From assembly GCA_964534625.1 (NCBI GenBank), contig CAZHRF010000026.1, forward strand, positions 3,013 to 21,168: a stretch of 18,156 nt of DNA, written 5' to 3'. Of this stretch, positions 12,404 to 13,125 are shown in pieces. This DNA comes from an uncultured archaeon (lineage in GTDB: Archaea; Asgardarchaeota; Heimdallarchaeia; Heimdallarchaeales; Heimdallarchaeaceae). Numbering within the stretch: position 1 is the stretch's first letter; every line of letters starts with the position of its first letter. The notes beneath the pieces were generated by a model. That model searched no databases. It was not told the DNA's origin and was given only the letters and a program-made list of their open reading frames with translations. A program made the position numbers and the translations under genes.

Positions 12404-12641
12404 CATGAGTTTCAAGGTCAATTGTACAATGAATCCTCTTACGGGCGCTAAGGGCGTATTATTTAGCCTTGTCCGTATCACTTGTGCGCCTATCACCACA
12501 TGACCATTATGTCCTTTCGTTCCTGGAGTCTTCTCTTAGACTCCTTTGCGAAAGGTACATCGTGTTCCTCTTCGTCACGTCACCAGATGGGTGAAGTGCC
12601 ACATGTTTAGGAAAGTTCCTAAATCGCCCTAAAAACTCATG
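12404..12641. ncRNA. Candidate structured non-coding RNA or MITE-like element of unknown family
   Basis: 48% GC over 12441-12630 (92/190 counted) versus ~20-30% in the flanks. Nested inverted repeats and several hairpins; no long ORF. Confidence 0.5.
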
Positions 12642-12925
12642 AAAAACCTTTCAATAACCTCACAGAACTTAAAATGCGCATAATATAAGAACAATTCGAT
12701 GAACAATAATCAAGAAAAAAACCATATGTGACTCTTATTTTTCCTTTATAAAAGTTACAGGATCAAATTTTGGTTTATCCAAATCTTATGGAAATTCTTT
12801 CATATTAAGGGTTTGAATTTTTCAAGAAAAAATAAACCATTCAACTACATATGAACAATTAACGAATTAATCTTAATTAAAGAGCATGAATAACCAGAAT
12901 CAATGATAAAAAAAAGAAAGAAAAA

Positions 12926-13060
12926 CTCGCTGGTGACAAGTCACCTATCCCAAAGTAAGCTTTTTTGATCTCAAGAAAATAAAAAAGTTATAAAACCTCG
13001 CTGGTGACAAGTCACCTATCCCAAAGTAAGCTTTTTGATCTCAAGAAAATAAAAAAGTTA
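12926..13060. repeat. Two-copy tandem direct repeat (65/64-bp core, 71-bp period), each copy with a GGTGAC-AA-GTCACC palindrome
   Basis: 12926-12990 and 12997-13060 are identical except for T6 versus T5. Palindromes at 12932-12945 and 13003-13016. Confidence 0.95.
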
Positions 13061-13125
13061 CAAAAAGAGAAATAGTTTTCCGAGTTATATATTCTTTCTT
13101 TAATTCTTTTAAACTATTTACGTAT

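What the first reader, a model, noticed from the sequence alone, without database searches (positions are those of the whole stretch)
12404..12641. GC-rich, extensively base-paired ~240-nt non-coding element upstream of the PIN operon
Seen: 48% GC against AT-rich flanks. Outer perfect inverted repeat CATGAGTTT/AAACTCATG (12404-12412, 12633-12641). Closing stem AGGGCG-tatt-ATTTAG/CTAAAT-CGCCCT (12451-12466, 12619-12630). A long central hairpin ATGTCCTTTCG/CGAAAGG(T)ACAT (12509-12560) encloses GGAGTCT-N6-AGACTCC. Further hairpins CAC-G-TCACC/GGTGA-A-GTG (12576-12598) and TTTAGGAA/TTCCTAAA (12606-12623). Direct repeat CCACATG at 12496 and 12599. Loops are purine-rich on the minus strand, the strand of the PIN operon. 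Inference: an unannotated ncRNA (RNA antitoxin, guide/scaffold or leader) or a non-autonomous mobile element. I could not match it to SRP, RNase P, tRNA, hammerhead, omega-RNA or attC consensus.
Basis: partly seen in the sequence, partly recalled or inferred. Interest (0 to 1): 0.75.

Follow-up and report, generated by a model that had tools for sequence, protein, structure and literature searches.

The report
Orphan TnpB guide-RNA scaffold repeat
The GC-rich folded element is one of about 20 gene-less copies of the guide-RNA (omega RNA) tail of a TnpB jumping gene in this archaeal genome; it is a new example of a known kind of element and has no specific tie to the neighbouring PIN operon.

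Summary

The element (12404-12640) is a dispersed repeat, not a one-off RNA. This genome holds 7 full-length copies at 83-85% identity. It also holds 6 partial copies that keep the same 3' end, and a diverged sister subfamily. Two copies continue upstream into the C-terminus of a TnpB nuclease gene.

In related genomes of the same archaeal family, intact 490-535 aa tnpB genes are followed by a 180-235 nt structured non-coding region. That region has the same ends (ATGAGT...AACTCAT), the same motifs and the same architecture. A covariance model built only from those foreign regions detects this genome's copies, and 43 of 51 base pairs covary.

So this is a solo copy of the core omega-RNA scaffold and right end of a TnpB transposon. 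It lies on the + strand, opposite to the PIN operon. No intact cognate tnpB and no Y1 transposase was found in this 90%-complete assembly, so it is most likely an orphan relic. Use in trans cannot be excluded.

Stand-alone omega RNAs are already described, and this scan found the same kind elsewhere in this genome. The family has no Rfam model.

The parts
12404..12407 (+). CATG at the 5' junction. It is either the candidate target motif (TAM) or the first bases of the element.
   Evidence: CATG stands immediately at the left junction in 9 of 10 full-length tnpB elements of the closest relatives. It also stands at the 5' junction of every truncation class in this genome: CCATG three times and CAATG once for the 238-nt form, CCATG for the 498-nt form in C1 and C94, and CCATG for the tnpB fragment on C17.
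12405..12640 (+). Core omega-RNA scaffold (solo copy, subfamily A), running from ATGAGT to AACTCAT.
   Evidence: It is 83-85% identical over its full length to 6 other copies. Homologous 178-235 nt regions with the same ends follow tnpB in 17 of 20 loci from related genomes. The covariance model R1, built from foreign loci only, hits sister copies.
12405..12412 (+). 5' strand of the closing stem P1 (AUGAGUUU).
   Evidence: It pairs with 12633-12640. The 6-bp core ATGAGT/ACTCAT is present in all 19 aligned family members and is 100% paired (helix 1).
12440..12477 (+). 5' domain hairpin (UACGGGCG...UGUCCGUA with an inner GGGC/GCCU stem).
   Evidence: Minimum-free-energy fold. It corresponds to helices 4 and 5 of the family model, where all 12 pairs show compensatory changes (alignment).
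12509..12560 (+). Long central hairpin. Its sequence varies between subfamilies.
   Evidence: Subfamily B and the relatives carry a different long hairpin at the same position.
12576..12598 (+). Conserved 3'-domain hairpin (CACGUCACC AGAUG GGUGAAGUG).
   Evidence: This is the most conserved block among the 11 copies aligned. It is shared as CCAGTTGGGTGA(A/G)GTG with subfamily B, and aligns to GGGTTGGGAAGAGTCC or TCTAGGATGAGTCC in relatives.
12605..12624 (+). Subterminal hairpin (GUUUAGGA AAGU UCCUAAAU).
   Evidence: A hairpin of different sequence occupies this position in every group, and all 12 pairs of helix 8 show double changes.
12625..12640 (+). A-rich tail and right end (..CCCTAAAAACTCAT). 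It includes the 3' strand of P1.
   Evidence: All copies and all relatives end in AA(C/T)TCAT, and unrelated sequence starts directly after it.
12641..12660 (+). Predicted guide segment (flanking DNA, GAAAAACCTTTCAATAACCT), if the element is transcribed.
   Evidence: Inference from the established layout of TnpB omega RNAs, where the guide lies just outside the right end (PMC10691335). Sequence after ACTCAT differs in every copy. No transcript data exist.

Best explanation
Window 12404-12640 is a gene-less, 5'-truncated copy of the right end of a TnpB transposon of the IS200/IS605 (OMEGA) kind. It retains exactly the core scaffold of the transposon's guide RNA (omega RNA, also called reRNA) and lies on the + strand. 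In the complete element, tnpB is followed by this structured RNA. Its 3' end, AACTCAT, is the transposon boundary, and read-through into the flank supplies the guide. TnpB loaded with that RNA recognises the empty target site, most likely one next to a CATG-type motif, and so maintains the element. The 238-nt form begins at an internal CCATG. That CCATG overlaps the 5' strand of the closing stem, which also gives the element its apparent terminal inverted repeat. The form exists as several dispersed copies, so it spread, or was generated repeatedly, as a unit. Here it landed about 134 nt upstream of the PIN operon by chance. No intact cognate tnpB and no Y1 transposase is assembled in this genome, so this copy is most likely an orphan relic. 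Shown: the repeat family, homology to regions next to tnpB, the conserved structure with covariation, and the junction motifs. Inferred: transcription, guide use, CATG as the TAM, and the way the truncated forms arose.
For: - Dispersed family. There are 7 full copies, 6 partial copies that keep the 3' end, and subfamily B. Motif scanning found 18 right ends of this family in the genome.
- Link to tnpB in this genome. In C1 and C94 the element continues upstream for 250 nt into a frame reading HADLNGAKNIARR..., the RuvC-III motif. That frame is 59-65% identical to the C-termini of relatives' TnpB.
- TnpB in relatives. In 17 of 31 genomes of the same family, 490-535 aa proteins match guided_TnpB (E 1e-26) and PF07282.
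- Same region after tnpB. In 17 of 20 fetched loci the 190-300 nt after the stop codon ends in AACTCAT. It carries AATGAGT(N)CC..GATGA(A/T)YCC near its start, the same motifs as window 12405-12436.
- Independent model. R1, built only from 5 such foreign regions, hits own subfamily B at 55 bits (E 8e-14) and A copies at 22 and 16 bits. It also hits the region next to tnpB in 15 relatives' loci.
- Covariation. 91% of cells are paired against 38-46% when partners are slid. 43 of 51 pairs have changes on both sides, and 0 of 500 shuffles reach this.
- Strand. It is the same strand as tnpB, z is -6.1 on + against -3.9 on -, and there are many G-U pairs.
- Not coding. Substitutions show no 3-periodicity (25/21/24 variable sites). 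There are stops in 3 of 6 copies. The frame is not kept in subfamily B or the relatives, and there is no Pfam hit.
- Precedent. Stand-alone mobilised omega RNAs are described in the literature (PMC10691335).
Against: - Model R1 does not detect the window copy directly. Its assignment rests on 83-85% identity to sister copies that are detected.
- No Rfam family matches, including the existing IS605-orfB-type families.
- The 238-nt form has no recognisable left-end segment or left hairpin. How it moved is unexplained by the classical Y1 peel-and-paste model, and no Y1 TnpA is found in this genome or in 4 of 5 relatives tested.
- No expression data could be obtained.
- The covariation alignment was fitted to the model, which inflates pairing somewhat.
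Confidence: 0.85

Rival explanations
1. The copy is a working stand-alone omega RNA. It is transcribed from the + strand and loaded in trans by a cognate TnpB encoded elsewhere in this organism, possibly in an assembly gap. It would then add the site 12641-12660 to the set of guarded or targeted sequences.
For: - Stand-alone omega RNAs that work in trans are reported (PMC10691335).
- The complete core scaffold, from P1 to the right end, is retained.
- The 3' ~100 nt is the best conserved part among 11 copies.
- All 6 partial copies keep the 3', guide-proximal part.
- A further tnpB fragment of the cognate clade lies at the very start of contig C17. Six or more contigs break inside the repeat, so a full copy may be unassembled.
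Against: - No intact cognate tnpB is present in the 90%-complete assembly.
- Copies differ by about 15% and carry mismatches in stems. Covariation within the family in this genome is nil.
- No promoter belongs to the unit.
- The guides have no close second target in the genome.
Confidence: 0.25
2. It is a cis- or trans-acting RNA of the PIN operon (RNA antitoxin, leader or scaffold), read on the minus strand.
For: It lies 134 nt upstream of the first gene of the minus-strand PIN module. The minus strand also folds better than shuffles, with z -3.9.
Against: - The other 12 or more copies have unrelated neighbours: ribosomal-protein-like genes, an rRNA operon, a radical-SAM-like gene and contig ends. 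None is next to a PIN gene.
- Homologues in other genomes are tied to tnpB, not to PIN.
- The + strand is the better-folding strand and the one that covaries.
Confidence: 0.03
3. It is a MITE of an unrelated cut-and-paste (DDE or casposase-like) transposon, defined by the terminal inverted repeat CATGAGT/ACTCATG. The resemblance to omega RNA would be secondary.
For: There is a perfect 9-bp terminal inverted repeat in the window copy. There are many copies with sharp ends. No Y1 transposase is present in the genome.
Against: - No target-site duplication flanks any copy.
- The same ATGAGT/ACTCAT pair lies inside the full element of relatives, closing the RNA downstream of tnpB. The left arm is internal there, not a transposon terminus.
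- In C1, C94, C16 and subfamily B, homology runs straight through the left arm.
Confidence: 0.05
4. It is a decayed or small protein-coding gene. The + strand frame starting at ATG 12405 reads MSF/PKV...
For: A roughly 75-codon frame is open in 3 of 6 full copies.
Against: - The window copy has two in-frame stops.
- Substitutions are spread evenly over codon positions (25/21/24, p 0.8).
- The frame ends after 25-31 codons in subfamily B and in the relatives.
- There is no Pfam match.
Confidence: 0.02

Closest known systems
TnpB omega RNA / right-end RNA (reRNA) of OMEGA systems in IS200/IS605-IS607 elements, e.g. ISDra2
   Same: - In relatives, a structured RNA is encoded at and beyond the 3' end of tnpB, on the same strand.
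- The scaffold ends exactly at the transposon's right boundary.
- Variable flank follows directly, as expected for the guide.
- The scaffold is closed by a long-range pairing that involves the bases next to the guide.
   Different: - There is no adjacent tnpB at this locus.
- The scaffold sequence matches no Rfam family.
- The associated TnpB clade is large (490-535 aa). It has Gly at the canonical RuvC-II glutamate and an invariant Glu about 49 residues later.
- Almost all of the core scaffold lies downstream of the stop codon instead of overlapping the ORF.
Stand-alone (effector-less) omega RNAs described by Altae-Tran and colleagues (as summarised in PMC10691335)
   Same: It is a mobilised omega-RNA unit without effector or transposase, present in several copies, each with a different flank or guide.
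   Different: Those were found in genomes that also encode the compatible effector. Here no intact cognate tnpB was found in the assembly, so use in trans is unproven.
PATEs / MITE-like gene-less derivatives of IS200/IS605 (Haloquadratum and others); the ~390-nt subfamily B of this genome
   Same: Gene-less, multi-copy, without target-site duplication, and retaining the right end.
   Different: The 238-nt form has no left-end segment beyond CATG. It looks like a 5' truncation at an internal CCATG, not a fusion of left and right ends.

Membership tests
TnpB omega RNA (reRNA) | Encoded at the 3' end of tnpB on the same strand, reaching the transposon's right end | tested here: met
   Met for the family: 17 of 20 relatives' loci, and the tnpB C-terminal fragments in C1 and C94 directly upstream of the element. 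The window copy itself has no adjacent tnpB, so it is a solo copy.
TnpB omega RNA (reRNA) | Conserved secondary structure supported by covariation | tested here: met
   91% of cells are paired against 38-46% with slid partners. 43 of 51 pairs have changes on both sides. The alignment was fitted to the model, so this is somewhat optimistic.
TnpB omega RNA (reRNA) | The scaffold's 3' end abuts copy-specific flank that serves as the guide | tested here: met
   Sequence after AACTCAT is unrelated in all 13 own copies and in all relatives.
TnpB omega RNA (reRNA) | Transcribed and bound by TnpB, directing TAM-dependent DNA recognition | not testable with these tools
   No RNA run is listed for this organism.
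TnpB omega RNA (reRNA) | Matches a curated omega-RNA-type Rfam model | tested here: not met
   No hit at gathering scores in the window or in 6 loci. Only chance-level hits appeared at E up to 10. The family is uncatalogued.
Stand-alone omega RNA acting in trans | A compatible effector (cognate TnpB) is encoded in the same genome | tested here: not met
   tblastn with five relatives' TnpBs finds only C-terminal or internal fragments on C1, C94 and C17. The assembly is 89.8% complete, with contigs breaking in the repeat, so absence is not proven.
IS200/IS605 gene-less derivative (PATE/MITE) | Both a left end and a right end with subterminal hairpins | tested here: not met
   The right end with a subterminal hairpin is present at 12605-12624. 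No left-end segment exists. The 5' flanks of the copies share nothing but (C)CATG, and a candidate shared 5' motif was no more frequent than a control.
IS200/IS605 gene-less derivative (PATE/MITE) | Insertion next to a short specific motif, without target-site duplication | tested here: met
   CATG stands at the left junction in 9 of 10 relatives and in all own junction classes. No duplication is seen.
IS200/IS605 gene-less derivative (PATE/MITE) | A Y1 (HUH) TnpA is available for mobilisation | tested here: not met
   PF01797 was not found in the own genome. It was found in only 1 of 5 relatives that carry this TnpB clade.

The most novel reading that the evidence does not exclude
The series of 5'-truncated copies may not be random decay. 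The series comprises a tnpB fragment on C17, the 498-nt form, the 238-nt form and shorter pieces. The first three begin right after a CCATG, and all end at the same AACTCAT. The transposition machinery of this Asgard TnpB clade, whose transposase is unknown, may cut at internal CATG sites that mimic the target motif. One such site is created by the omega RNA's own closing stem. The guide-RNA scaffold would then repeatedly bud off as a minimal mobile guide cassette. These cassettes could serve as a trans-acting guide library for a TnpB with a rearranged RuvC-II site.
Probability: 0.15. Interest if true: 0.6.

Novelty: new member of a known kind. Interest (0 to 1): 0.33.

Why it matters
- It removes a candidate novel ncRNA or RNA antitoxin from the list and explains a conspicuous GC island in AT-rich Asgard DNA.
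- It documents an uncatalogued omega-RNA family. The family is 180-240 nt, is closed by ATGAGT/ACTCAT, has well-supported covariation, and is tied to a large TnpB clade with a rearranged RuvC-II site in Heimdall-type archaea. This could seed an Rfam model and help annotate many similar GC islands, including one in this genome that was earlier guessed to be RNase P RNA.
- The candidate CATG junction motif and the clean scaffold-guide boundary would be useful if anyone tests this clade as a programmable nuclease.
- The recurrent truncation at CCATG is a small unexplained point about how these elements move without a Y1 transposase.

Tried and rejected
- Rfam at gathering and at E up to 10, and tRNA/tmRNA search: nothing.
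- BLAST of the extended element against 40 related genomes found only the tnpB coding part in one of them. DNA-level homology does not reach beyond this genome, so a covariance model was needed.
- Model R1 on the window with filters off did not report the window copy.
- mafft X-INS-i and Q-INS-i are not installed. A global MAFFT alignment of all groups gave only the P1 stem.
- Sequencing runs: no RNA holder is listed. Four DNA runs of one microbial-mat study hold the stretch.
- Laying their contigs showed contig breaks inside the repeat, but no joint that skips the element, so no empty-site allele was seen.
- Metagenome scan for the conserved 3' motif gave one further gene-less B-like copy and one chance hit, with no intact parent.
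- Guides: 18-nt flanks searched with up to 4 mismatches gave only the chance hits expected in AT-rich DNA.
- A shared 5' flank motif (TTATAAAACTTTTCAATCA) suggested a short left end, but it is no more frequent than its reversed control, 10 against 17.
- The ~400-aa ORF upstream of tnpB in 6 relatives was considered as a transposase. It is the C-terminus of a ~900-aa Walker-type ATPase-like gene with a 44%-identical homologue in this genome, and has no Pfam or PDB match. Its role is left open.
- The left end of the R19/R23 groups could not be delimited.

Full report
**Observation.** Its GC content is 45.4%, against 27.2% in the 300 nt on either side. As RNA, the + strand folds at -82.6 kcal/mol, against -55.2 +/- 4.5 for dinucleotide shuffles (z -6.1). 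The minus strand gives z -3.9. No shuffle out of 200 did as well on either strand. Rfam has no match at gathering scores and only chance-level hits at E up to 10. There is no tRNA or tmRNA.

**It is a dispersed repeat.** Searching the window's own genome (3.37 Mb, 120 contigs, 89.8% complete) finds 7 full-length copies at 83-85% identity. These are the window copy, two on C27, and one each on C1, C94, C38 and C116. There are also 6 partial copies.

- Every partial copy keeps the + strand 3' end. Three are internal truncations and three are cut by contig ends. Several contigs end inside the repeat.
- An nhmmer profile also finds a diverged sister subfamily B of about 390 nt, with copies on C5, C27, C15, C39, C80 and C20. 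It shares the 3' end ..AAAAGAACTCAT and blocks such as ATGAGTCCCGGG and CCAGTTGGGTGAGGTG.
- Motif scanning finds 18 right ends of the two subfamilies together.
- Neighbouring genes differ at every copy, and none is a PIN gene. Conserved linkage to the PIN operon is therefore rejected.

**Link to TnpB.** In C1 and C94 the homology continues 250 nt further upstream, giving a 498-nt unit at 95% identity. It runs into an open frame reading HADLNGAKNIARRF..., the RuvC-III motif of TnpB. This fragment is 59-65% identical to the C-termini of TnpB proteins from related genomes.

In the same taxonomic family, 17 of 31 genomes carry 490-535 aa proteins of this clade. Complete genomes often hold 13-16 copies. 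The proteins match NCBIfam guided_TnpB (E 1e-26) and Pfam PF07282. Solved TnpB and Cas12f structures are their best PDB matches.

In 17 of 20 loci fetched, the 190-300 nt after the tnpB stop codon ends in AACTCAT, followed by unrelated sequence. Near its start the region carries AATGAGT(N)CC...GATGA(A/T)YCC. These are the motifs of window 12405-12436 and 12635-12640. The stretch from ATGAGT to ACTCAT is 178-235 nt in relatives and 236 nt in the window. The window element is therefore the whole core of this RNA and nothing else.

**Structure and covariation.** Each group folds into the same architecture. The groups are own A, own B, and three groups of relatives.

- A closing stem, ATGAGT/ACTCAT.
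- One or two 5' hairpins.
- A long variable central hairpin.
- A conserved 3' block.
- A subterminal hairpin of variable sequence.
- An A-rich tail.

I built covariance model R1 from five regions next to tnpB in five other genomes only. It hits own subfamily B at 55 bits (E 8e-14). It hits own A copies at 22 bits (E 9e-5) and 16 bits (E 5e-3). It also hits the 3' flank of tnpB in 15 relatives' loci.

On the resulting 19-sequence alignment, 91% of cells are paired, against 38-46% when partners are slid. 43 of 51 pairs have changes on both sides, and 0 of 500 shuffles reach the observed values. The alignment is fitted to the model, so these figures are somewhat optimistic. Helices 2, 4, 5, 6 and 8 covary throughout. 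Many G-U pairs fit only the + strand.

R1 does not report the window copy itself, which is the most divergent A copy. Its membership rests on full-length identity to the A copies that are detected. Within subfamily A the copies are too similar to show covariation. The last ~100 nt are the best conserved part.

**Not coding.** A ~75-codon frame starts at the ATG of ATGAGT and is open in 3 of 6 full copies. The window copy has two stops in it. Variable sites are spread evenly over codon positions (25/21/24, p 0.8). The frame ends after 25-31 codons in subfamily B and in relatives. Pfam finds nothing.

**Junctions.** The right end is always AA(C/T)TCAT. At the left junction of ten full-length elements of the closest relatives' group, CATG stands immediately before the first conserved bases in nine and CAAG in one. 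The upstream flanks are unrelated.

In this genome the 238-nt form begins CCATG|AGT three times and CAATG|AGT once. The 498-nt form begins CCATG|CTGAC in both C1 and C94. A further tnpB fragment at the start of contig C17 begins CCATG|GGCTAC. No target-site duplication is seen.

In the long form and in a variant at the end of C16, the sequence CCACCCATGAGTCCC is internal and contiguous. The parent of the 238-nt form therefore carried an internal CCATG overlapping the 5' strand of the closing stem.

My inference is that CATG is the target-adjacent motif, or the terminal tetranucleotide, of this family. On that reading the truncated forms arose by cutting or joining at internal CATG sites. This would explain both the sharp 5' boundary and the apparent terminal inverted repeat. 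It is not demonstrated. Two shorter internal truncations lack CATG at their junction and look like ordinary deletions.

PF01797 (Y1 TnpA) is absent from this genome's assembly and from four of five relatives tested. The transposase of the family is therefore unknown.

**Function here.** By the established layout of OMEGA systems, the guide lies just outside the right end (PMC10691335). A + strand transcript of this copy would carry the guide GAAAAACCTTTCAATAACCT (12641-12660).

Whether it is made or used is unknown. No RNA run is listed. Contigs of four DNA runs from one microbial-mat study show no allele lacking the element. No intact cognate tnpB is in the assembly, and the guides have no close second target. 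I therefore rate an orphan relic as most likely and use in trans at about one in four. The second option is kept open by the incompleteness of the assembly and by contigs that break in the repeat or inside a tnpB fragment.

**Comparison and novelty.** Stand-alone mobilised omega RNAs that work in trans are already described (PMC10691335). Gene-less IS200/IS605 derivatives (PATEs) are known too.

Earlier notes of this scan reached the same kind of conclusion for other elements of this genome, including the three C27 copies of this subfamily. I derived the reading independently before consulting them. Two older notes that took a GC-rich island between the rRNA genes for RNase P RNA share short words with this element. 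They appear to concern the C1 copy. That locus holds the tnpB C-terminal fragment plus this scaffold, and Rfam finds only the SSU rRNA there.

The finding is a new member of a known kind. The family itself has no Rfam model, and it belongs to a TnpB clade with a rearranged RuvC-II site (PMC10691335).

Noticed in passing
window 12925-13066: A ~71-nt unit (CTCGCTGGTGACAAGTCACCTATCCCAAAGTAAGCTTTTTTGATCTCAAGAAAATAAAAAAGTTATAAAAC) stands twice in tandem in the same intergenic region. It recurs at more than 20 other loci of the genome, often in tandem pairs. Summed contig depth there is 10-30 times the neighbourhood in four DNA runs. It is a second, unrelated short dispersed repeat with an internal palindrome, GGTGACAAGTCACC.
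   Followed up: partly
L019-L038 (relatives' TnpB proteins): In all 18 full-length TnpBs of this clade, the canonical RuvC-II glutamate position reads Gly (V-x-V-G-F/Y-P). An invariant Glu lies about 49 residues later, just before the zinc finger (..G-E-S-W-T-S..C-x-x-C). RuvC-I Asp and RuvC-III Asp are invariant. This fits the RuvC-II-rearranged clades described in PMC10691335.
   Followed up: partly
G000 C1:14976-15478 (L009:1501-2003, minus strand): The 498-nt copy lies about 1 kb from the 3' end of the 16S rRNA gene. Earlier notes of the scan guessed RNase P RNA for a GC-rich island between the rRNA genes. This locus holds a tnpB C-terminal fragment plus the omega-RNA scaffold, and Rfam reports no RNase P there.
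   Followed up: partly
G000 C17:2-109 (minus strand): This fragment of a cognate tnpB covers residues ~336-371 and is 61-69% identical to relatives. It sits at the very start of a contig and is preceded by ..TTGACCATG. It is a further CCATG-bounded 5' truncation, or the edge of an unassembled full copy.
   Followed up: partly
G000 C27:21837-22576: A subfamily B copy is inserted, in opposite orientation, into the 3' end of a tnpB of a different family. That ORF ends ..VVIPLRFL, where intact paralogues on C30 and C7 continue ..YYHLFGH... This is a nested insertion of one OMEGA element into another.
   Followed up: partly
L019:2-1192, L026 and four other relatives' loci; G000 C1:23077-25902: In six relatives, tnpB starts about 300 nt after the stop codon of a large gene with Walker A/B-like motifs (GMVGRGKT, VVLEEA). 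The stop is embedded in ..TTGTCAT|AA. The gene has no Pfam or PDB match. A 44%-identical ~940-codon frame exists once in this genome without tnpB behind it. Whether this gene is cargo of a larger mobile element or a preferred insertion site is open.
   Followed up: partly
G000 C1:15480-15550 and ~25 other loci: The ~70 nt AT-rich stretch just upstream of the C1 copy (..TTATTCATAATTAGCTTTAGTAATAGTACTAATCCGAATTAAGAAAACATTTAAGG..) is itself repeated at about 25 loci at 75-85% identity. This is another short dispersed repeat family.
   Followed up: no
all copies of the family in G000: All six partial copies keep the 3' end and none keeps only the 5' part. Random decay does not explain this one-sided truncation pattern. 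It may reflect the mechanism of spread or selection on the guide-proximal part.
   Followed up: partly
G000 C64, C4, C16, C30, C7, C42, C19: At least two other TnpB families are present. Most are 135-244-codon fragments, and one is an intact 425-codon gene on C42. Their right ends are different (..GGTAGTTCAT, ..TTCATC). The genome is rich in decayed OMEGA elements.
   Followed up: no
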